29,989 nucleotides of DNA from Nannocystis pusilla (lineage in GTDB: Bacteria; Myxococcota_A; Polyangia; Nannocystales; Nannocystaceae), in assembly GCF_020073745.1 (NCBI RefSeq), contig NZ_JAIRAU010000047.1, positions 1 through 29,989 on the forward strand, written 5' to 3'. The first letter of the stretch is position 1. The number at the start of each line of letters is the position of its first letter. Shown here piece by piece: positions 1,924-9,494 of the stretch. The notes beneath the pieces are model-generated. The model did not search any database. It was not told where the DNA came from and saw only the letters and a program-made list of their open reading frames with translations. The position numbers and the translations under genes were made by a program.

Positions 1924-3342
1924 ATGGTGAGGCGAGGGATCGGCGGATTGTGCATGAGCGTGGGCGTGTTGCTCGGCGGCTGCGGTGACGACGGCGGGCG
2001 CACCAGCGAGAGCGGGACCGCGACGATGGCGACGACCACGACGATGACCGGCCCGACGAGCACCGGCGGCGTCACCGACGAGCCGACCACCACCGCGCCG
2101 ACCGGCACCGGCACCGAGTCGATGACCGGCACCACCGACGTCCCCGGCACCACCACCGACGCTGTCACCGACGCCACCGCGACCACCGCCGTGGGCCCCA
2201 ATCAACCGCCGGAGTGGGACTCCGAGCCGGCCACCGAGATCGTGATCGAGGAGCTGTTCCAGTCGAACTTCGAACCCGGGCAGATCTTCATCTCGTCGTC
2301 GCGCACCGACGAGGTCCGGGTGTACGACGGCAACAGCCTCGCGTTCGTGCAGGCCTTCACCCACCCGGCGTTCAGCACGGTCGCCTCGGATCTCTACACC
2401 TACGGCCCGAACGGCGCGGCCTTCAACTCGCGCGGCAACCTCGTCGTCGCCGGCTACGACACCTTCGTCGAGTTCAGCGACTACGGCGTCGAGTACGCGA
2501 CCTACCCGAAGATCGCCGCCGAGGCGACCGAGAACGTCATCTTCGACCCGCGCGGCAACCTCTACACCACCACGGCCACCGGCGGCACCGACAAGCTCAA
2601 CCAGTACGACGCCGAGGATTACGCGTTCATGCAGCAGATCCCGCTGCCGGCCGGCGCGGGTCAGCTGACGGGCATCACGTTCGACGGCAAGGGCCGCCTC
2701 TACCTCGCCAGCCAGACCGACAACACCATCCACGTCGCCGACTTTGAGAACTTCGAGCAGTTCCCGTGGACGGGGACCCTCAGCGGCGCCGGCAACCCCG
2801 GCAACTTCGAGGGCCTGCAGTTCAACGCCAACGGCGAGCTGGTCGCGGCCGCCGGCGACCTCGTGCGTTACGACGTGCTCGGCGGCACCAAGCTCGGCAC
2901 GTTCGACCAGCCCGACGACGCCTTCCCGGTGCCGCTGCGCGTCGACAACGAGGGCAACATCTACACGTCGGACTACGAGAACGGCCAGGGCACGCTCGCG
3001 GCCGACATCTTCAAGTTCGCGCCCGACGGCCAGCCGCTGACCGCCAGCAACGACCCGGGCCTGTTCGGCCCGTTCGGCCTCGCCATCTCCGGGACGGTGC
3101 TGGCGGGCGACCCGCCCGTGGCGTGGTTCTACCAGCTCGTCGCCACCGACCCAGACGGCGACCCGCTGACCTACACCCTGGTCTCCGGCCCGCCCGACAT
3201 GGTCCTCGATCCGAACAACAACGTGCTCTCGTGGTCCGTGACGAGCGAGGACATCGGCGAGCACCCGGTCGTCCTCAGCGTCGACGACGGCCAGGGCGGC
3301 GTGACCGAGCAGATGTTCGTGCTCATCGTGAAGTCGGCCTGA
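1924..3342 (+). CDS. Lipoprotein with a Thr/Gly-rich linker, a beta-propeller-like (NHL/SMP-30-like) region and a C-terminal cadherin-like/Ig-like domain.
   Basis: GGAGGAGG at 1911-1918 lies 5 nt upstream of the ATG at 1924. The signal peptide MVRRGIGGLCMSVGVLLGGC has an LGGC lipobox. Repeated YDxxGNLY-type blades are present. The C-terminus ATDPDGDPLTYTLVSGPP..VVLSVDDGQGG is typical of cadherin-like domains. Confidence 0.75.
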   Translation: MVRRGIGGLCMSVGVLLGGCGDDGGRTSESGTATMATTTTMTGPTSTGGVTDEPTTTAPTGTGTESMTGTTDVPGTTTDAVTDATATTAVGPNQPPEWDSEPATEIVIEELFQSNFEPGQIFISSSRTDEVRVYDGNSLAFVQAFTHPAFSTVASDLYTYGPNGAAFNSRGNLVVAGYDTFVEFSDYGVEYATYPKIAAEATENVIFDPRGNLYTTTATGGTDKLNQYDAEDYAFMQQIPLPAGAGQLTGITFDGKGRLYLASQTDNTIHVADFENFEQFPWTGTLSGAGNPGNFEGLQFNANGELVAAAGDLVRYDVLGGTKLGTFDQPDDAFPVPLRVDNEGNIYTSDYENGQGTLAADIFKFAPDGQPLTASNDPGLFGPFGLAISGTVLAGDPPVAWFYQLVATDPDGDPLTYTLVSGPPDMVLDPNNNVLSWSVTSEDIGEHPVVLSVDDGQGGVTEQMFVLIVKSA

Positions 3343-4355: not shown

Positions 4356-5168
4356 GTGCCGAGTTTCGCCGCCGCCGAGCCCACCGCCTTCGCCCACAAG
4401 TACGGTCCCTGGGCCGTCGTCGCCGGCGCCTCCGAGGGCCTCGGGGCCGCGTTCGCCCGGGCCCTCGCCGATCGCGGCCTCAACCTCCTGTTGCTCGCGC
4501 GGCGGGCCGACGTGCTCGAGTCGGTCGCCGCCCCGCTGCGCGCCCGGGTCGACGTGCGCACCGCAGCCCTCGACCTCGGCGACCCCGACCTGGCCGCGCG
4601 CCTCGACGCGCTGACCCGCGACCTCGACGTCGGCCTCTGCGTCTACAACGCCGCTCTGTCGCGGATCGGCCCCTTCCTCGACGTCCCGCTCGCCGACAAG
4701 CTGAAGATCGTCGACGTCAATTGCCGCGGCCCCTTGCTCGCCGCGCACGTGTTCGGCGAGCGGCTGGTCCGCCGCGGCCGCGGCGGCCTCCTGCTCATGT
4801 CCTCGCTCACCGCCTTCTGGGGTTCGCCGCTGGTCGCCACCTACGGCGCCACCAAGGCGTTCAACCTCTCGCTCGGAGAGGCCCTCTGGTACGAGCTCGG
4901 CCCGCGCGGCGTCGACGTGCTCGTGTGCTGCGCCGGCGCCACCCGCACCCCCGGCTTCGAGCGCTCGAGCGGCCCCGACGGCCCGCGCGCCATGACCCCC
5001 GACGCCGTCGTCGCCGAGGCCCTGCACGCCCTCGGCGGCCCGCCGAGCGCCGTGCCCGGCCGCCTCAACCGGTTCGCCGCGTTCCTGCTCAACCGCCTGT
5101 TCCCGCGCAGCGGCGCCGTCGCCCTCATGGGCTCGCAGACCGCCCGCCTGAGCAAGCCCTCGACCTGA
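4356..5168 (+). CDS. Short-chain dehydrogenase/reductase (SDR) family oxidoreductase.
   Basis: It has the Rossmann motif VVAGASEGLGAAFARALADRG and the catalytic YGATKAF (YxxxK). The GTG start at 4356 is inferred, since there is no in-frame ATG. The overlapping frame 4316..5254 is an Arg-rich shadow. Confidence 0.75.
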   Translation: MPSFAAAEPTAFAHKYGPWAVVAGASEGLGAAFARALADRGLNLLLLARRADVLESVAAPLRARVDVRTAALDLGDPDLAARLDALTRDLDVGLCVYNAALSRIGPFLDVPLADKLKIVDVNCRGPLLAAHVFGERLVRRGRGGLLLMSSLTAFWGSPLVATYGATKAFNLSLGEALWYELGPRGVDVLVCCAGATRTPGFERSSGPDGPRAMTPDAVVAEALHALGGPPSAVPGRLNRFAAFLLNRLFPRSGAVALMGSQTARLSKPST

Positions 5169-5183
5169 GCGTCCGCGATTCCT

Positions 5184-5210
5184 CGTACATGGCCGAAGAG
5201 ACAGCTCTCA
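5184..5210. repeat. Repeat family copy CGTACATGGCCGAAGAGACAGCTCTCA.
   Basis: It nearly matches 28912-28937 (GGACATGTCCTGCGAGACAGCTCTTA) and the reverse complement of 3496-3507. It sits in the convergent junction between the SDR and the sterol reductase. Confidence 0.6.
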
Positions 5211-5234
5211 TCCCGGCCGGCGACGCCCCCGGAT

Positions 5235-6386
5235 TCAATACACCCCGGGGATGATCCGCCAGCGCACCCGCCGCTCGTACTGCTGCCACAGCGCCCCGTA
5301 CTTGGCGCGGCAGCGGCGGTCGTCGTCGATCTGCCGCGGCACCAGCAGCACCACGTAGTACAGCGGATACAGCCACGGCCCCGGCTCGCCCGGGTAGCCG
5401 AGCGACAGCGCCAGCGCGGTCGCCATCGTCATCTCGCCCAGATAGTTGATGTGCCGCGACAGCCCCCAGAAGCCGCTCACCAGGATCTTCTTCTCGCCGT
5501 CGGTCAGCACCTCGGGCGCGATCGACCCGAACGCCAATTTCTCCGGCTGCGTCTTGAACCAGAACTTCTGCATGTTGGCCCCGCGCGCCAGCATCCACCC
5601 GGCGAAGAACAGCGCCGCGCACAGCCCCAGCAGCGGCGCCGGCGTGTGCGGATTGGCCAGCTCCGCCGTCGTCCACAGGCCAACCGCGTAGAAGAACGGG
5701 TAGAACGTCAGGCAGCCCCAGCCGAGCTTGAAGCCGACGCGCTCGGCCACGAAGTCGTAGGTGTAGAGGTGCACCTCCTCGAAGTTGAGGTACTCCCACA
5801 GGAAGAACGAGAACAGCGCCACGTGCAGCAGCACGCCCGGCGACGGGTCGCCAGGGTACGCGAGCAGGTGATGGGCCGCGAACGACAGCAGGTTCAGCTG
5901 CAGCATCACCGCCCCGATCAGGTACAGAAACATCTTGGCGTCGACGTGGCCGTCGAGCCACTGCGGATTGGCCAGGCGTCCGAGGTACAGGTCCGCCAGA
6001 AAGCCGCGCCGCGGCGCCGCCGGCAGCACGATCGCCAGCGTGAACAGCAGCCCCAGCCCGCACGCCGTCGCCAGCGTCGCCTCGCGGTGCACGTACAGCC
6101 AGTCCCACGGCGCCAGCCCGGTCGCCCCGGCGACGAAGTACAGCGCCACCGTCAGCGCCATCACTCGCAGCCCGTTGAGCCGGTAGCGCAGCGGCGCTCC
6201 GCTGGCCTCGTCGCGCACGTAGCCGGTCACGCGGCGGCCCGGCACGATCAGGTGGAGCACGAACACCAGCCCGTAGAGGGCGATCAGCGCGAATGCGGGC
6301 GACACGGCCCAGGCTACGAGACCGCGGCCGCGCCTGTAAAGCCTCGGCGCGTGCGCTCCGGCTCGACCCGTGCCAAGCTCGGGCAT
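5235..6386 (-). CDS. Sterol reductase of the DHCR7/ERG4/ERG24 family (7-dehydrocholesterol reductase-like).
   Basis: The C-terminal signature LVSGFWGLSRHINYLGEM..YYVVLLVPRQIDDDRRCRAKYGALWQQY aligns by eye to the human DHCR7 C-terminus (LLVSGFWGVARHFNYVGDL..RDEHRCASKYGRDWERY). It has multiple TM helices. The ATG at 6386 (MPELGTGRAG) is preceded by GAGGA; an alternative GTG lies at 6305. Confidence 0.8.
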   Translation of the reverse strand: MPELGTGRAGAHAPRLYRRGRGLVAWAVSPAFALIALYGLVFVLHLIVPGRRVTGYVRDEASGAPLRYRLNGLRVMALTVALYFVAGATGLAPWDWLYVHREATLATACGLGLLFTLAIVLPAAPRRGFLADLYLGRLANPQWLDGHVDAKMFLYLIGAVMLQLNLLSFAAHHLLAYPGDPSPGVLLHVALFSFFLWEYLNFEEVHLYTYDFVAERVGFKLGWGCLTFYPFFYAVGLWTTAELANPHTPAPLLGLCAALFFAGWMLARGANMQKFWFKTQPEKLAFGSIAPEVLTDGEKKILVSGFWGLSRHINYLGEMTMATALALSLGYPGEPGPWLYPLYYVVLLVPRQIDDDRRCRAKYGALWQQYERRVRWRIIPGVY

Positions 6387-6891
6387 GCCCCGTCCTCGCG
6401 CCGCCCTCGTGCTGTCCGCCTGCCTGTTCGTTTGCGCATGCTCCAAGGGCCAGGTAGAGCCGACCGACCCCGGCGGCGGCGGCAAGGTGTGCACCGAGAT
6501 CGGCTGCATCGGCGGCCTGCGCGTCGAGCTCCAGTCGGCCAGCGGCTGGGCGCCGGGCGAGTACACGTTCAGCTTCGCGCTCGACGGCGCGCCCGTCACC
6601 TGCACCGGCTCGCTGCCGCTGCGCGCCTGCGACGCGGGCCCCTCGCTCGCCTGCGACGTCCCGGACCGCGTGCAGATCGGCGAATCCGGCTGCGCCTTGC
6701 CGCCCGAGCAACATGGCTTCGCGGACATCCTGGTGCCGAGCAGTCCCGCCAGGCTCGATCTGGCGATCCGCCGCGACGGCCAGCAGCTGTGGGCCGGCGA
6801 GCTCGCCCCGACCTACGTCGAATCGCAGCCCAACGGGCCCGGGTGCGAGCCGATCTGCCGCGGCGCGACCGCCCAGGTGGCGCTCCCGTGA
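6385..6891 (+). CDS. Small Cys-rich secreted lipoprotein, 168 aa.
   Basis: MPRPRAALVLSACLFVCAC is a signal peptide with a lipobox. GC3 is excellent through to the stop at 6889-6891. The ATG at 6385-6387 overlaps the CAT (6384-6386) that gives the ATG of the divergent sterol reductase, inside GGGCATGCCC. Confidence 0.7.
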   Translation: MPRPRAALVLSACLFVCACSKGQVEPTDPGGGGKVCTEIGCIGGLRVELQSASGWAPGEYTFSFALDGAPVTCTGSLPLRACDAGPSLACDVPDRVQIGESGCALPPEQHGFADILVPSSPARLDLAIRRDGQQLWAGELAPTYVESQPNGPGCEPICRGATAQVALP

Positions 6892-6968: not shown

Positions 6969-9494
6969 TCAGTACGAAGCGTTGCGGAACAGCGAGAAGT
7001 GGGTGCGCGTGTAGCCGCCCTCGCTGCCGATCACGACATCGGGGAGATCGTCGTGATCGACGTCTCCGACGGCGAACGAGCGCGGGAGTAACAGCTGATA
7101 GACGAGCGGCTCGCCGAAGCCGCCGCCGGCGAGCCCGGCCCGGGCCACCACCTGGCCGTTGGTCGGCGCGTAGAACACATCCGGCCGCTGGTCGTTGTTG
7201 AAGTCGGCGACGACCATGGTCGACTCGCCGAGGAAGAAGCTCCCGGGGACGTCGACGGGCGGCCCGAAGCTGCCGTCGCCGAGGCCGGGATGGATCGCCA
7301 GACCAGCCGTGACCTGCTGCGAGAACACCGCCAGCATCAGGTCGACGATCCCGTCGTCGGTGAAGTCGCCGGCTTCGACGCGCCACGGCGTCAGCGCGCT
7401 GGGGATCGTCGAGACCTGCGGGCTGAAGCTACCATCGCCCTCGCCCCGGAACAGCACGATCTCCTTTGTTTGATAGCTCGGCGCGGCGGCGTCGAGATCG
7501 CCGTCTCCGTCGAAGTCGGCCACCGCGATGTTGTAAAGGCCCTGACCCGCGGGGATCTGCGCCCCCGGGGTGAGCGCCCCGCTGCCGTCGCCGAGCATCG
7601 GCAAGAGGAAGTCATAGCCGGCGGTGAGCACGTCGAGGTGGCCGTCCTCGTCGAGGTCGGCCACCGCCAGCCGCCACGGGCCGGGATACGACGCCGGCGC
7701 CTCGAAGTGACCGGTGCCGTCCCCGAAGTGGATCACCAGCGTCTTGTCGGGGCCGAGGCCGTGGATCGACGCCAGCAAGTCCAGGTGACCGTCCTCGTCG
7801 ATGTCGGCGGCGATGAGGTCGCGCGGCTCGGCCGTCACCGGCAACGACGGCTCGATCGGGTCGGCGAAGGTGAGGTCGCCGTTGCCGCGAAACACGACGA
7901 TCTCCTCCGAGTCCTCGAACCCGGCGACGACATCGGCGTGCCCGTCCTCGTCGAAGTCGGCGATCACCGACTCGGACGGACGCAGCCCGCCGATCAGCGC
8001 CGGGGCGGCGGTGAAGCGGCCGTCTCCGCGATTCTTGGCCACGCCGAGGCCGGCGCAGCCGAGCATCAGGTCGGCGACCCCGTCGGCGTCGACATCACCG
8101 GCCTCGACCCGATTGCAGCGGGCAGAGTCGTACAGCACCGGCGGCTCGGAGAATGTCCCGTCACCGGCGCCGTAGCGGACGTAGAGCAGCGTGTCGTCGC
8201 CGCTGGTGCTGGCGAGATCGAGGACGCCGTCGCCGTCCCAGTCGCCGACAGCCGCGTGCGCGCCCTCTTTGCCCGTGCGGTAGCGCGCGACGTAATCGAG
8301 CGCGCCGTCGGGTCCACCGAGGAGAACGCCGATGCCCTCGCGATCGACGGCCAGGACGTCGCCGTGCCCGTCGGCGTCGACGTCGGCGACGACGACCTGC
8401 GTGGTGAACTCGACGGCGATACCCCCCATCGGCGGGACGTCGACGACCGGCTGCAGCGCAAAGCCGCCGTCGCCGAGAGACAGCCCGATCTGCACCTTGG
8501 GGTCGTTGGAGTCGTGCAGGAGCACCAGATCGGCGAGGCCGTCGCCGTCGATGTCGCCGCTGCCGAGCCACTTGGTGGCGACGTTGGCCATGAACGACGA
8601 CTCCGGGCCGAAGCCGCCGGCGCCGTCGCCGAGGTGGACGGCCACGCTCGTCGGATCTTTCGCGAGCATCAGGTCGAGGTCGCCGTCATCGTCGATGTCG
8701 GCGAACGTCGGGCCCGTGCGCTGCTTCACCGCGGGGAGAGCCACCGGCGCCTGGAACGTGCCGTCGCCGTTGCCGAGCAGCAGCCGCGCGCCGATGTCGC
8801 TGCTGGTGGTGACGAGGATGTCGAATTGCGCGTCGCCGTTCACGTCGCCGAGCGCGAGGCGCCACACCTGCGGCACGGCGTGGACCTCTCCCGGGGTGTA
8901 ATACCCGTCGGCGCCGGCGAGCACCACGACCACCTCGTTGTCGACCTCGTCGAGCGTGACCGCGTCGGTGCGGCCGTCCCCGTCGAGGTCGGCGACCACG
9001 TATTCGTGGCCGCCGAAGTAGCCCTTCGAATAGGTCTTGATGGCGTCGAAATCGAGCACACCCTGCAGCGGCGGCTCGCCCGTGTCGTCGGTATCGGTGC
9101 CCGTCGTGTCGGTGCCCGTCGTGCCGGTGCCCGTCGTGCCGGTGCCCGTCGTGCCGGTGGTAGACGCGGCCGTCGGGTCGACGCCGCTCGTCGCGGTCGT
9201 ATCGGTCGTATCGGTCGTGTCGGTCGTCTCGTCGGGCCGCGTCGTCGTGGGCGCCGCGGTGGGGTCGCCCGTCGTGCTCGACAGGCTCGCCGAGCCCTGT
9301 GTCGGCGGATCGCCGGCGCTCGTGTCGGACGTGCTCGCGCCGCTGGTGGTCGTCGAGCTCGCCGAGTCCGTCTGTCCTTGACTGGTATCGTCGCCGCACG
9401 CCGCAAACCCGAGGTGCCCGGTCAACAAGGTGAGGGTCGCGCGATCGGTGAACGCGCGTGAGAAGCGAGCAGGATGGACCACGCGCGCCAACAT
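6969..9494 (-). CDS. FG-GAP repeat (integrin-alpha-like beta-propeller) lipoprotein with a Thr/Ser/Asp-rich linker, 841 aa.
   Basis: It has at least 14 copies of the D-x-D/N-x-D-G-x-x-D calcium-binding FG-GAP motif (DLDGDGRTD, DVNGDAQFD, DIDDDGDLD, DIDEDGHLD and others). The N-terminus ..LTGHLGFAACGDD is lipoprotein-like. Confidence 0.8.
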   Translation of the reverse strand: MLARVVHPARFSRAFTDRATLTLLTGHLGFAACGDDTSQGQTDSASSTTTSGASTSDTSAGDPPTQGSASLSSTTGDPTAAPTTTRPDETTDTTDTTDTTATSGVDPTAASTTGTTGTGTTGTGTTGTDTTGTDTDDTGEPPLQGVLDFDAIKTYSKGYFGGHEYVVADLDGDGRTDAVTLDEVDNEVVVVLAGADGYYTPGEVHAVPQVWRLALGDVNGDAQFDILVTTSSDIGARLLLGNGDGTFQAPVALPAVKQRTGPTFADIDDDGDLDLMLAKDPTSVAVHLGDGAGGFGPESSFMANVATKWLGSGDIDGDGLADLVLLHDSNDPKVQIGLSLGDGGFALQPVVDVPPMGGIAVEFTTQVVVADVDADGHGDVLAVDREGIGVLLGGPDGALDYVARYRTGKEGAHAAVGDWDGDGVLDLASTSGDDTLLYVRYGAGDGTFSEPPVLYDSARCNRVEAGDVDADGVADLMLGCAGLGVAKNRGDGRFTAAPALIGGLRPSESVIADFDEDGHADVVAGFEDSEEIVVFRGNGDLTFADPIEPSLPVTAEPRDLIAADIDEDGHLDLLASIHGLGPDKTLVIHFGDGTGHFEAPASYPGPWRLAVADLDEDGHLDVLTAGYDFLLPMLGDGSGALTPGAQIPAGQGLYNIAVADFDGDGDLDAAAPSYQTKEIVLFRGEGDGSFSPQVSTIPSALTPWRVEAGDFTDDGIVDLMLAVFSQQVTAGLAIHPGLGDGSFGPPVDVPGSFFLGESTMVVADFNNDQRPDVFYAPTNGQVVARAGLAGGGFGEPLVYQLLLPRSFAVGDVDHDDLPDVVIGSEGGYTRTHFSLFRNASY

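What the first reader, a model, noticed from the sequence alone, without database searches (positions are those of the whole stretch)
4356..6386. DHCR7-family sterol reductase with a convergent SDR: bacterial sterol modification genes
The reductase C-terminus aligns residue-by-residue with the human DHCR7 signature region. Bacterial members of this family are rare and are linked to sterol-producing lineages (some Myxococcota, Methylococcales, Planctomycetes). The convergent SDR (NAD(P)-binding motif VVAGASEGLG, catalytic YxxxK) could be a sterol 3-ketoreductase-type partner, but that is speculative. No cyclase or demethylase is in this window.
Basis: partly seen in the sequence, partly recalled or inferred. 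Interest (0 to 1): 0.5.

Follow-up and report, generated by a model that had tools for sequence, protein, structure and literature searches.

The report
Atypical sterol-reductase paralog with SDR partner
A Nannocystis (sterol-making soil myxobacterium) gene for a membrane enzyme of the sterol double-bond-reductase family sits beside a small NADPH dehydrogenase; the pair recurs across many bacteria, but it is not a human-type DHCR7 and it lacks the tyrosine that all studied sterol reductases keep, so its substrate is still unknown.

Summary
A 356-aa ERG4/ERG24-family membrane reductase (5235-6305, minus strand; the ORF runs to 6386) lies convergent to a 270-aa classical SDR (4356-5168, plus strand). 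The window is from Nannocystis, a known sterol producer.

The "DHCR7" label is not supported. The protein falls in a separate clade (100% NJ bootstrap) with uncharacterised choanoflagellate and chytrid proteins. This clade is distinct from DHCR7 and from the canonical bacterial delta-14 reductase, which sits in an SE-CYP51-SdmA-EBP sterol cluster and is only 33% identical.

All 120 closest homologs carry Phe where delta-14 reductases have their predicted catalytic Tyr, and Cys where they have the "WGD" Asp. All 120 canonical bacterial enzymes keep Tyr, and 118 of them keep Asp. NADPH-binding residues are intact.

An SDR ortholog is adjacent in 42 of 62 loci with enough flanking DNA, in all four orientations. 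It is the only conserved neighbour, and no sterol-pathway gene was detected at any of about 110 loci.

Best reading: a conserved two-enzyme module, a C=C reductase plus an NADPH ketoreductase, acting on a sterol-like lipid whose identity is unknown. I could not determine whether Nannocystis also has a canonical delta-14 reductase.

The parts
5235..6305 (-). CDS of an ERG4/ERG24-fold membrane NADPH-dependent C=C reductase, 356 aa, 'FC-type' clade. An alternative upstream ATG lies at 6386.
   Evidence: PF01222 E 2e-47. Best solved relative is 4QUV MaSR1, E 5e-38. The AF2 model has pLDDT 88.9 and TM-score 0.85 to 4QUV. The start is inferred from 356-aa homologs.
5802..5804 (-). Codon for Phe168, at the position of the predicted catalytic Tyr of delta-14 reductases (MaSR1 Y241, ScERG24 Y257).
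   Evidence: Alignment mapping. Phe in 120/120 family members against Tyr in 120/120 canonical bacterial C14 reductases. The catalytic role of the Tyr is taken from PMC12489058.
5712..5714 (-). Codon for Cys198, which replaces the Asp of the 'WGD' motif (MaSR1 D271, ScERG24 D287).
   Evidence: Cys in 120/120 family members against Asp in 118/120 canonical enzymes. In docking, ScERG24 D287 lies near sterol ring A and its 3-OH (PMC12489058).
5433..5477 (-). SGFWGLSRHINYLGE signature. It contains N287 (equivalent to the NADPH-binding MaSR1 N359) and E291 (equivalent to MaSR1 D363).
   Evidence: The role of N359 is taken from PMC4951196.
5238..5345 (-). C-terminal signature LVPRQIDDDRRCRAKYG...RIIPGVY. 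It contains R324 (equivalent to the NADPH-binding MaSR1 R395), and Pro323 replaces the usual His.
   Evidence: PMC4951196.
5169..5234 (.). 66-bp spacer between the two convergent stop codons.
   Evidence: No consensus terminator was found in it.
4356..5168 (+). CDS of a classical short-chain dehydrogenase/reductase, 270 aa, GTG start, with a conserved basic/hydrophobic C-terminal tail.
   Evidence: PF00106 E 1e-25. Best solved relative is the 7beta-HSDH 5FYD, E 8e-31. Orthologs sit next to reductase orthologs in 42/62 loci.
4425..4445 (+). GASEGLG dinucleotide-binding motif of the SDR.
   Evidence: Invariant across 19 orthologs; coordinates checked.
4497..4505 (+). Invariant Ala-Arg-Arg after beta-strand 2, the motif that in classical SDRs marks NADP(H) preference.
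   Evidence: The preference rule itself comes from general SDR knowledge, not from a tool.
4842..4856 (+). Catalytic YGATK (Tyr163, Lys167). Asn122 and Ser150 complete the tetrad.
   Evidence: Invariant in 19 orthologs; coordinates checked.

Best explanation
The two genes form a conserved two-enzyme module. The first enzyme is a membrane-embedded, NADPH-dependent C=C reductase with the sterol-reductase (ERG4/ERG24, MaSR1-like) fold. It belongs to a separate 'FC-type' clade that is neither DHCR7 nor the canonical delta-14 reductase. The second is an NADPH-preferring classical SDR that probably binds the membrane surface through its conserved C-terminal tail. I propose that both act on the same sterol-like lipid: the reductase saturates a ring double bond and the SDR reduces a keto group, at C-3 or near the reduced bond. 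In other words, an 'ene-reduction then keto-reduction' pair, and in Nannocystis the substrates would be its own sterol intermediates. Shown here: the family, the fold, the intact NADPH site, the distinct clade, the active-site switch, and the conserved pairing. Inferred: that the substrate is a sterol, which bond is reduced, the order of the two steps, and the role of the keto group.
For: Fold and cofactor site: PF01222 match; TM-score 0.85 to MaSR1; the equivalents of NADPH residues N359 and R395 are conserved.
Distinct clade: the query family plus a eukaryote-like clade (Monosiga A9VAA6, Salpingoeca, chytrids) groups at 100% bootstrap, and canonical bacterial enzymes form their own 100% clade.
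Active-site switch: Tyr to Phe and Asp to Cys in 120/120 family members, against Y in 120/120 and D in 118/120 canonical enzymes. According to PMC12489058, the Tyr is the predicted proton donor and the Asp lies near the sterol 3-OH. Losing both fits a substrate with a different polar head, such as a ketone, or a different protonation geometry.
Partner: an SDR ortholog is adjacent in 42/62 loci and is the only conserved neighbour. All four orientations occur (22 convergent, 22+18 tandem, 9 divergent), the median gap is 33 bp, and the two proteins' identities co-vary with r=0.92. The SDR keeps its catalytic tetrad and an invariant ARR motif. Its nearest solved relative is a steroid 7beta-HSDH.
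Paralogy: canonical YD-type enzymes occur in Minicystis rosea and in a Sandaracinaceae MAG. FC-type genes also occur in a Minicystis sp. MAG and a Sandaracinaceae MAG. The canonical type sits in a sterol cluster, whereas no sterol gene lies next to any FC-type locus.
Against: No experiment exists for any member of this clade.
The catalytic role of the Tyr rests on modelling and on the MaSR1 paper as cited in PMC12489058. A conserved Tyr one helical turn away (Y172, equivalent to MaSR1 Y245) could substitute.
Published surveys list only one ERG24/DHCR7/ERG4 hit in N. pusilla. The N. exedens 'C-14 reductase', gene number 7995, lies roughly where this locus would fall. If this is the only family member in Nannocystis, it must be the delta-14 reductase.
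A P450 whose best solved relatives are CYP51 (weakly, E 8e-36) sits directly upstream in two loci.
Adjacency shows a functional link but does not identify the chemistry.
Confidence: 0.45

Rival explanations
1. The gene is simply the working delta-14 sterol reductase of Nannocystis (ERG24/FK function), reducing the 14,15 double bond left by CYP51. The SDR would be a linked sterol-pathway ketoreductase, for example the 3-keto reduction of C-4 demethylation.
For: The nearest characterised relatives are all delta-14 reductases: MaSR1 at E 5e-38 and TM 0.85, plant FK, and Naegleria. Nannocystis makes 14-demethylated delta-8 and delta-7 sterols and so needs this step (PMC4919349). Akone 2023 lists a single gene for the ERG24, DHCR7 and ERG4 queries in N. 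pusilla. In Lee 2023 the N. exedens C-14 reductase is gene 7995 of the large scaffold, which fits this locus at 10.06 of 11.27 Mb if genes average about 1.26 kb (the gene density comes from my own knowledge). Sterol genes are scattered in Nannocystaceae genomes. A weakly CYP51-like P450 lies upstream in L078 and L081.
Against: The predicted catalytic Tyr and the ring-A Asp are replaced throughout the clade. The delta-14 reductase embedded in a real sterol cluster is a different clade at 33% identity. Both types occur in Minicystis and Sandaracinaceae lineages. The family also occurs in Treponema, Gammaproteobacteria and Bacteroidota MAGs, which are not known to make sterols. Wei 2016 and Lee 2023 name different N. 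exedens genes, which hints at two homologs.
Confidence: 0.3
2. The pair acts on a non-sterol lipid such as a polyprenol, another isoprenoid or a long-chain keto-lipid. Its presence in a sterol producer would then be incidental. It could work like the eukaryotic SRD5A3 plus DHRSX pair that makes dolichol.
For: None of about 110 loci of this family carries a homolog of SE, CYP51, SdmA or EBP. Family members are found in MAGs labelled Treponema, Gammaproteobacteria, Bacteroidota and Archangiaceae. The active-site residues that contact the sterol in models are changed. The second-best NCBIfam match of the SDR is mycolate reductase, a lipid beta-keto reductase. The fold is shared with steroid 5-alpha-reductase and ICMT.
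Against: Every characterised member of PF01222 acts on sterols. The named cultured hosts are sterol producers (Nannocystis), and related lineages (Minicystis, Sandaracinaceae) make cholesterol. MAG taxonomy and the sterol capacity of those MAGs were not checked. The nearest solved SDR is a steroid dehydrogenase.
Confidence: 0.15
3. One reading: a DHCR7-type delta-7 sterol reductase that converts 5,7-dienes to delta-5 sterols.
For: It shares the family and the C-terminal signature. In L029 and L030 an FA_hydroxylase-family gene (the family that contains C-5 desaturases) lies directly upstream of a family member.
Against: Grouping with DHCR7 has 0% bootstrap support, and similarity to human DHCR7 is 1e-26 at 28%, weaker than to FK or ERG24 (memory-typed reference). 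No DHCR7-named protein appears among the best 150 representatives. The true DHCR7 homolog of E. salina is about 439 aa and scores 1e-87 at 36% to human DHCR7. Lee 2023 lists no 7-dehydroreductase for N. exedens, and the reported Nannocystis sterols are delta-7 and delta-8 monoenes.
Confidence: 0.04
4. The two genes are neighbours by descent only and have no functional link.
For: In Nannocystis they are convergent rather than co-transcribed. In four of the six Nannocystis genomes, 0.9-3.2 kb of other DNA lies between them.
Against: The pairing persists over wide divergence (reductase identity to the query down to 55%, SDR down to 41%) with repeated rearrangement into all four orientations and a median gap of 33 bp. 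It is the only conserved neighbour.
Confidence: 0.03

Closest known systems
Delta-14 sterol reductases (MaSR1 of Methylotuvimicrobium alcaliphilum, PDB 4QUV; plant FACKEL; fungal ERG24; TM7SF2/LBR)
   Same: Same Pfam family and same fold (TM-score 0.85, 30% identity). The NADPH-binding Asn and Arg and both C-terminal signatures are conserved. The short N-terminus resembles the 369-aa plant FK.
   Different: Separate clade. Phe replaces the predicted catalytic Tyr and Cys replaces the 'WGD' Asp. The His after QK becomes Phe or Tyr, and the His before the conserved Arg becomes Pro.
Canonical bacterial C-14 reductase embedded in sterol gene clusters (P0371 type; SE-CYP51-SdmA-C14R-SdmA-EBP in L033)
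   Same: Similar length (370 aa against 356 aa). Both have Glu at the MaSR1 D363 position. Both occur in Myxococcota.
   Different: Only 33% identical. The P0371 type keeps Tyr and Asp, sits among sterol genes and has no SDR neighbour. The window's type never sits among sterol genes and usually has the SDR neighbour.
Uncharacterised eukaryotic ERG4/ERG24 paralogs (Monosiga brevicollis A9VAA6, Salpingoeca rosetta F2U813, chytrid proteins)
   Same: They are the closest relatives outside the bacterial family (about 41-43% identity over the full length for Monosiga and Podochytrium; 49% over a partial alignment for Salpingoeca), with the same Phe/Cys signature and 100% bootstrap for the joint clade.
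   Different: They are about 400 aa with an insertion. No function is known. Whether they have an SDR partner was not tested. The Salpingoeca gene model runs into an epimerase/3beta-HSD-like domain.
DHCR7 (7-dehydrocholesterol reductase)
   Same: Same superfamily and same C-terminal NADPH signature.
   Different: DHCR7 is longer, keeps Tyr and Asp, and is more distant than FK or ERG24.
Collinsella aerofaciens 7beta-hydroxysteroid dehydrogenase (PDB 5FYD/5GT9; NCBIfam NF050024)
   Same: It is the best solved and best NCBIfam relative of the SDR. Both are classical NADP(H)-type SDRs.
   Different: The SDR scores 117 bits against a cut-off of 300, so it is not a member. It also has an extra conserved C-terminal tail and a fixed membrane-reductase partner.
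SRD5A-type membrane reductase plus SDR pairs (SRD5A3 with DHRSX in dolichol synthesis; 5-alpha-reductase with 3-ketoreductase in stanol formation)
   Same: The working logic is the same: a polytopic NADPH reductase of the related fold (Foldseek hits 7C83 and 7BW1) teamed with an SDR acting on a carbonyl of the same lipid.
   Different: These belong to a different Pfam family (PF02544). The analogy comes from my own knowledge, not from a test. No enone substrate has been shown here.

Membership tests
ERG4/ERG24 sterol-reductase family (PF01222) | Profile match above the Pfam gathering score | tested here: met
   162 bits against a cut-off of 27, E 2e-47.
ERG4/ERG24 sterol-reductase family (PF01222) | MaSR1-like polytopic fold | tested here: met
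   AF2 model pLDDT 88.9; Foldseek against 4QUV gives E 6e-18 and TM 0.85.
ERG4/ERG24 sterol-reductase family (PF01222) | NADPH-binding residues (MaSR1 N359 and R395, equivalent to LBR N547 and R583) and the C-terminal signatures | tested here: met
   N287 and R324 are invariant. Their roles are taken from PMC4951196.
Canonical delta-14 sterol reductase (ERG24/FK/TM7SF2/MaSR1) | Predicted catalytic Tyr (MaSR1 Y241, ScERG24 Y257) | tested here: not met
   Phe168 here and in 120/120 family members; Tyr in 120/120 canonical enzymes.
Canonical delta-14 sterol reductase (ERG24/FK/TM7SF2/MaSR1) | Acidic partner residue (MaSR1 D363) | tested here: met
   Glu291, which is also Glu in the canonical bacterial type.
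Canonical delta-14 sterol reductase (ERG24/FK/TM7SF2/MaSR1) | 'GD' Asp near sterol ring A (ScERG24 D287) | tested here: not met
   Cys198 in 120/120 family members.
Canonical delta-14 sterol reductase (ERG24/FK/TM7SF2/MaSR1) | Phylogenetic placement inside the clade of characterised or cluster-embedded enzymes | tested here: not met
   Separate clade with 100% NJ bootstrap. Its sister relation to the FK group is weakly supported, 34-48%.
Canonical delta-14 sterol reductase (ERG24/FK/TM7SF2/MaSR1) | Reduction of the 14,15 double bond of 8,14-diene sterols | not testable with these tools
   Needs expression in a lanosterol+CYP51 host followed by GC-MS.
Canonical delta-14 sterol reductase (ERG24/FK/TM7SF2/MaSR1) | Genomic association with CYP51, OSC, SdmAB or EBP (bacterial members) | tested here: not met
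   None in the window and none at about 110 family loci. The canonical type does show this association.
DHCR7 (delta-7 sterol reductase) | Orthology to DHCR7/DWF5 in a family tree | tested here: not met
   0% bootstrap with DHCR7. E 1e-26 at 28% identity, weaker than to FK at 3e-46.
Classical SDR (PF00106) | Gly-rich motif, NAA motif, and the Asn-Ser-Tyr-Lys tetrad | tested here: met
   GASEGLG, NAA, N122, S150, Y163 and K167 are all invariant in 19 orthologs.
7beta-hydroxysteroid dehydrogenase (NCBIfam NF050024) | Score above the curated cut-off | tested here: not met
   117 bits against a cut-off of 300.
SdmB/SdmC (bacterial C-4 demethylation reductases) | Extended-SDR / 3beta-HSD-type domain. 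That SdmB is of this type, at about 350 aa, is from my own knowledge; Lee 2023 calls it only an SDR-type reductase. | tested here: not met
   The protein is 270 aa and matches only adh_short, adh_short_C2 and KR. There is no 3Beta_HSD or Epimerase hit.
ERG27 / HSD17B7 3-ketosteroid reductase | Orthology or 3-ketosteroid reductase activity | not tested
Activity needs an assay.

The most novel reading that the evidence does not exclude
The Phe/Cys-type ERG4/ERG24 proteins and their SDR partner form a previously unrecognised, widespread two-enzyme lipid-saturation system, shared by many bacterial phyla and, for the reductase, by choanoflagellates and chytrids. It would use a different proton-donor geometry from all studied sterol reductases. 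It would perform a step not yet assigned to any gene, such as saturating a sterol ring bond through a keto intermediate (stanol-type or 15-oxygenated products like the Nannocystis nannosterols) or saturating a non-sterol isoprenoid.
Probability: 0.35. Interest if true: 0.7.

Novelty: new variant of a known kind. Interest (0 to 1): 0.5.

Why it matters
Myxobacterial sterol genes are central to two debates: where eukaryotic sterol synthesis came from, and how sterane fossils should be read.

Genome surveys currently assign ERG4/ERG24 homologs to pathway steps by BLAST alone. This analysis shows that at least two deeply separated types exist in Myxococcota. Only one of them sits in sterol clusters and keeps the residues thought to do the chemistry.

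If the Phe/Cys type turns out to be the delta-14 reductase of Nannocystis, the accepted catalytic model (Tyr as proton donor) needs revising. If it is not, then a conserved reductase-plus-SDR module with eukaryotic relatives is an unassigned lipid-modifying step, and published pathway tables for Nannocystaceae may name the wrong gene. Either outcome can be tested directly with the existing E. coli lanosterol expression system.

Tried and rejected
- **Sterol genes near the pair.** I found none in the window and none at about 110 related loci when searching with SE, CYP51, SdmA and EBP from a real cluster.
- **Rieske oxygenase near the pair in L116.** It is GbcA/carnitine-monooxygenase-like, not SdmA.
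- **FA_hydroxylase and a 3beta-HSD-like gene in L029.** They are seen only in that lineage, and the 3beta-HSD-like gene sits with UbiA and cupin genes.
- **P450 upstream in L078 and L081.** Its best PDB hits are CYP51, but only at E 8e-36, too weak to call it CYP51.
- **'ERG27 analog' from the literature.** It is an aldehyde-dehydrogenase-type protein, not this SDR.
- **The 2026 8,14-Bsr sterol reductase.** It is an NTF2-family protein and unrelated.
- **Search for a canonical paralog in Nannocystis.** A search with P0371 showed no protein named Nannocystis, and no hit on a contig of a length matching the Nannocystis contigs seen, among the top 120 hits, which is inconclusive.
- **Type of the E. 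salina C-14 reductase.** I tried to infer it from published E-values. The hints conflict, and its listed neighbours include no SDR.
- **AFDB fold search.** It was unavailable.
- **Rfam, tandem-repeat and promoter/terminator scans.** They added nothing to the finding.
- **First bootstrap script.** It timed out and was rewritten.
Full report
**Observation.** The region holds two convergent genes. On the minus strand, ORF 5235-6386 (383 aa from its ATG) matches Pfam ERG4_ERG24 (PF01222) with E 2e-47 over profile positions 73-432. Its homologs are almost all 355-359 aa and start at the residue matching a GTG at 6305. I therefore take 5235-6305 (356 aa) as the CDS. This also removes an overlap with the divergent lipoprotein gene at 6370-6891. 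On the plus strand, 4356-5168 (GTG start, 270 aa) is a classical SDR (PF00106, E 1e-25) with GASEGLG and YGATK motifs. Third-position GC profiles support both frames. The stop codons are 66 bp apart. The rest of the 30-kb window has no cyclase, epoxidase, CYP51 or C-4 demethylation gene.

**Organism and literature.** The reductase is 98% identical to a locus in Nannocystis radixulma and 87-90% identical to five other Nannocystis genomes. Nannocystis makes cholest-8-enol and lathosterol (PMC4919349) and the nannosterols (PMC10152446). Its sterol genes are scattered around the genome. Published surveys have already noted an ERG4/ERG24 homolog in this genus. In N. pusilla the queries LBR, DHCR7 and ERG4 all hit one gene, K7C98_12900. 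Lee et al. 2023 list a 'C-14 reductase' for N. exedens and no 7-dehydroreductase. Wei et al. 2016 name a different N. exedens gene for ERG24, but the table concerned also disagrees with the same paper's own OSC assignment. None of these assignments rests on an experiment.

**Family and fold.** The best solved relative is the delta-14 sterol reductase MaSR1 (4QUV, E 5e-38), followed by another delta-14 reductase (9L5R). No DHCR7 entry matched. An AlphaFold model built on 33 homologs (pLDDT 88.9) superposes on 4QUV with TM-score 0.85. The next structural hits are steroid 5-alpha-reductases and ICMT. The equivalents of the NADPH-binding residues MaSR1 N359 and R395 (LBR N547 and R583; PMC4951196) are invariant (N287 and R324). 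This is a cofactor-competent member of the sterol-reductase fold.

**Clade placement.** A search of 1.8 billion cluster representatives gave three tiers.
- A bacterial family of about 356 aa.
- A large set of roughly 400-aa proteins at 42-48% identity.
- Canonical delta-14 reductases at 29-37% identity.

Exact-sequence look-ups named members of the second tier as Monosiga brevicollis A9VAA6, Salpingoeca rosetta F2U813 and chytrid proteins, all uncharacterised. Members of the third tier were named as Apium and Naegleria delta-14 reductases. No DHCR7- or ERG4-named protein was among the roughly 30 of the best 150 representatives whose names I looked up. In a neighbour-joining analysis (200 bootstraps), the query family plus the eukaryote-like set form a clade at 100%. 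The bacterial family alone has 79% support, canonical bacterial enzymes 100%, and any grouping with DHCR7 0%. The FK recall was 75% identical to the database Apium FK. Against these references the query scores FK 3e-46, ERG24 2e-30, DHCR7 1e-26 and ERG4 9e-16. The DHCR7 label is not supported.

**The canonical bacterial enzyme is a different protein.** Representative P0371 (370 aa, 33% identical to the query) lies in a metagenomic cluster ordered squalene epoxidase, P450, Rieske, ERG4/ERG24, Rieske, EBP. Its Rieske protein is SdmA-like by NCBIfam. P0371-type proteins at 54-62% identity are also abundant. They include Minicystis rosea and a Sandaracinaceae MAG. Both of those lineages also carry the query's type: a Minicystis sp. 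MAG at 66% and a Sandaracinaceae MAG at 60%. The two types are therefore paralogs that can occur in the same lineages.

**Active-site switch.** PMC12489058 names Tyr241 and Asp363 of MaSR1 (Tyr257 and Asp374 in yeast ERG24) as the predicted catalytic residues. It places yeast Asp287, the 'GD' Asp, near sterol ring A and its 3-OH in docking poses. Mapping these residues onto alignments gives the following.
- The Tyr position is Phe168 in the query.
- The 'GD' Asp is Cys198.
- Asp363 is Glu291, as in the canonical bacterial type.
- A second Tyr one helical turn away (Y172, equivalent to MaSR1 Y245) is retained.

In a 332-sequence alignment, all 120 closest homologs of the query have Phe and Cys. 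All 120 P0371-type proteins have Tyr, and 118 of them have Asp. The eukaryote-like sister set is also Phe/Cys almost without exception. Two further positions switch with the clade: the His after QK becomes Phe or Tyr, and the His before the conserved Arg becomes Pro. This is a fixed, clade-wide change at residues that models place at the reaction centre. It argues for a changed substrate head group or a changed protonation geometry.

**The SDR partner.** tblastn with the window's SDR found an ortholog beside the reductase ortholog in distant genomes. After adding 80 metagenomic loci, 42 of 62 non-redundant loci with at least 1 kb on both sides carry it. All-against-all clustering of neighbouring ORFs found no other widely conserved neighbour. 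Among 71 pairs (a broader tally that also counts pairs at loci with shorter flanks) the arrangement is convergent in 22, tandem reductase-then-SDR in 22, tandem SDR-then-reductase in 18, and divergent in 9. The median gap is 33 bp. The identities of the two proteins to the window's copies co-vary (r = 0.92, or 0.82 without Nannocystis). Independent look-ups show the same pairing on contigs of 0.7 and 3.7 Mb. Keeping a pair together through repeated rearrangement is strong evidence of a functional link.

The SDR keeps the Asn-Ser-Tyr-Lys tetrad and an invariant Ala-Arg-Arg after strand 2. By general SDR knowledge, this motif marks NADP(H) use and therefore a reductive role. It also has a conserved basic/hydrophobic C-terminal tail suited to membrane association. 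Its nearest solved and NCBIfam relative is the 7beta-hydroxysteroid dehydrogenase of Collinsella, but it scores far below that family's cut-off. It is not SdmB/SdmC-like, because it has no 3beta-HSD or epimerase domain.

**Context and distribution.** No homolog of squalene epoxidase, CYP51, SdmA or EBP occurs at any of about 110 loci of this family. There are three local exceptions of interest.
- A P450 directly upstream in L078 and L081. Its best solved relatives are M. capsulatus CYP51, but only at E 8e-36.
- An FA_hydroxylase-family gene upstream in L029 and L030.
- A GbcA-like Rieske oxygenase near L116.

Named hosts outside Myxococcota include Bacteroidota (Saprospiraceae, Ferruginibacter), Gammaproteobacteria and Treponema MAGs. 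One member lies on a 2-Mb contig with nuclear-receptor, LIM and Sec7 domains, which looks like an animal genome. I could not test whether these organisms make sterols.

**What it most likely does.** Shown here: an NADPH-competent sterol-reductase fold, a distinct clade with an altered reaction centre, and an obligate-looking NADPH ketoreductase partner. Inferred: the pair acts in sequence on one membrane lipid, saturating a C=C and reducing a C=O. Every characterised family member acts on sterols, and the cultured hosts make sterols, so a sterol-like substrate is the best guess. Loss of the Asp that models place at the 3-OH, together with a ketoreductase partner, fits a keto-sterol intermediate. 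This would resemble the 5-alpha-reductase plus 3-ketoreductase logic, or the SRD5A3/DHRSX logic of dolichol synthesis (both from my own knowledge). I give this 0.45.

The main rival (0.30) is that this is simply the Nannocystis delta-14 reductase. That must be true if the genus has no Tyr/Asp-type paralog. In its favour are the single hit listed for N. pusilla and the rough agreement between gene number 7995 and this locus's position at 10.06 of 11.27 Mb. Against it are the active-site switch, the co-occurrence with canonical enzymes in related lineages, and the distribution beyond known sterol producers. A non-sterol substrate gets 0.15, DHCR7 function 0.04, and a meaningless adjacency 0.03.

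**Unresolved.** The top 120 hits to P0371 included nothing named Nannocystis and nothing on a contig of a length matching the Nannocystis contigs seen, which is inconclusive. The published similarity of the E. salina C-14 reductase to yeast ERG24 (2e-41, 29%) resembles the canonical type (8e-44) more than this family (2e-30). My earlier calibration against other references had pointed the other way. Its listed neighbours include no SDR. The paralog question is the decisive next computation.

**Novelty.** The gene as a 'homolog of ERG24/DHCR7/ERG4 in Nannocystis' is already in the literature. Three things were absent from the papers I could search: recognition that it belongs to a separate Phe/Cys clade with eukaryotic relatives, that this clade lacks the predicted catalytic Tyr, and that it is tied to a dedicated SDR. 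I rate it a new variant of a known kind, of moderate interest.

Noticed in passing
L033:5902-12936: A metagenomic contig (55.6% GC) carries a compact bacterial sterol cluster: squalene epoxidase, P450 (CYP51-like), SdmA-like Rieske, a Tyr/Asp-type C-14 reductase (P0371), a second Rieske, and EBP. It served as the reference for the canonical type.
   Followed up: partly
L035:10001-11065: A 354-aa member of the family (47% identical to the query, uninterrupted ORF) lies on a 2.0-Mb contig. Its neighbours carry zf-C4 nuclear-receptor, LIM, Sec7 and PH domains, so the contig looks like an animal genome. This could be horizontal transfer into a metazoan.
   Followed up: no
P0297 (Salpingoeca rosetta F2U813, 785 aa): This gene model joins an ERG4/ERG24 domain truncated at its C-terminus to an epimerase/3beta-HSD-type domain truncated at its N-terminus. 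It is probably two adjacent genes merged. That would place a Rossmann-fold dehydrogenase next to the eukaryotic sister-clade reductase as well.
   Followed up: partly
L078:1469-2788 and L081:2730-3902: A P450 sits 38 bp upstream of the family's reductase on the same strand. Its best solved relatives are M. capsulatus CYP51 (E 8e-36), only slightly ahead of CYP120. These two loci have no adjacent SDR.
   Followed up: partly
L029:8761-9837 (same gene in L030): An FA_hydroxylase-family protein (358 aa) has a C-terminal half that looks like a Rossmann-type domain. It lies directly upstream of the reductase-SDR tandem and is seen only in this lineage.
   Followed up: partly
Literature: PMC4919349 Table 4 versus PMC10202945 Supplementary Data 1: For the same N. 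exedens ATCC 25963 annotation the two papers name different genes for the C-14 reductase (Ga0008035_01127 against Ga0008035_05937) and for the cyclase (04852 against 02275). Either the genome has two homologs or one table is in error.
   Followed up: partly
window:3762-4190 (-): A GFA-family (glutathione-dependent formaldehyde-activating-like) gene lies just upstream of the SDR. It has the same relative position in N. radixulma but lies on the other side of the reductase in the other Nannocystis genomes, so it is not part of the module.
   Followed up: yes
window:13634-14500 (+): A membrane fatty-acid desaturase (PF00487) lies 7 kb from the pair and is syntenic in all six Nannocystis genomes. 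It belongs to the acyl-lipid desaturase family, not the sterol desaturase (FA_hydroxylase) family.
   Followed up: partly
window:9603-10877 (+): An N6/N4 DNA methyltransferase (PF01555, 424 aa) has no obvious restriction partner nearby. It is conserved in position across Nannocystis genomes.
   Followed up: no
window:23878-25938 (+): An IucA/IucC plus FhuF-like siderophore synthetase gene. The neighbouring ORFs were not characterised.
   Followed up: no
window:3335-3397 and 9095-9159: Two 15-bp tandem repeats of about 4 copies each. The first overlaps the last 8 bases of the NHL/beta-propeller lipoprotein gene (stop codon ends at 3342) and continues into the intergenic DNA. The second encodes part of the Thr/Gly-rich linker of the FG-GAP repeat protein.
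   Followed up: no
window:6370-6891 (+): A 173-aa predicted lipoprotein with no Pfam or NCBIfam match lies divergent from the reductase. It is conserved only within Nannocystis.
   Followed up: partly
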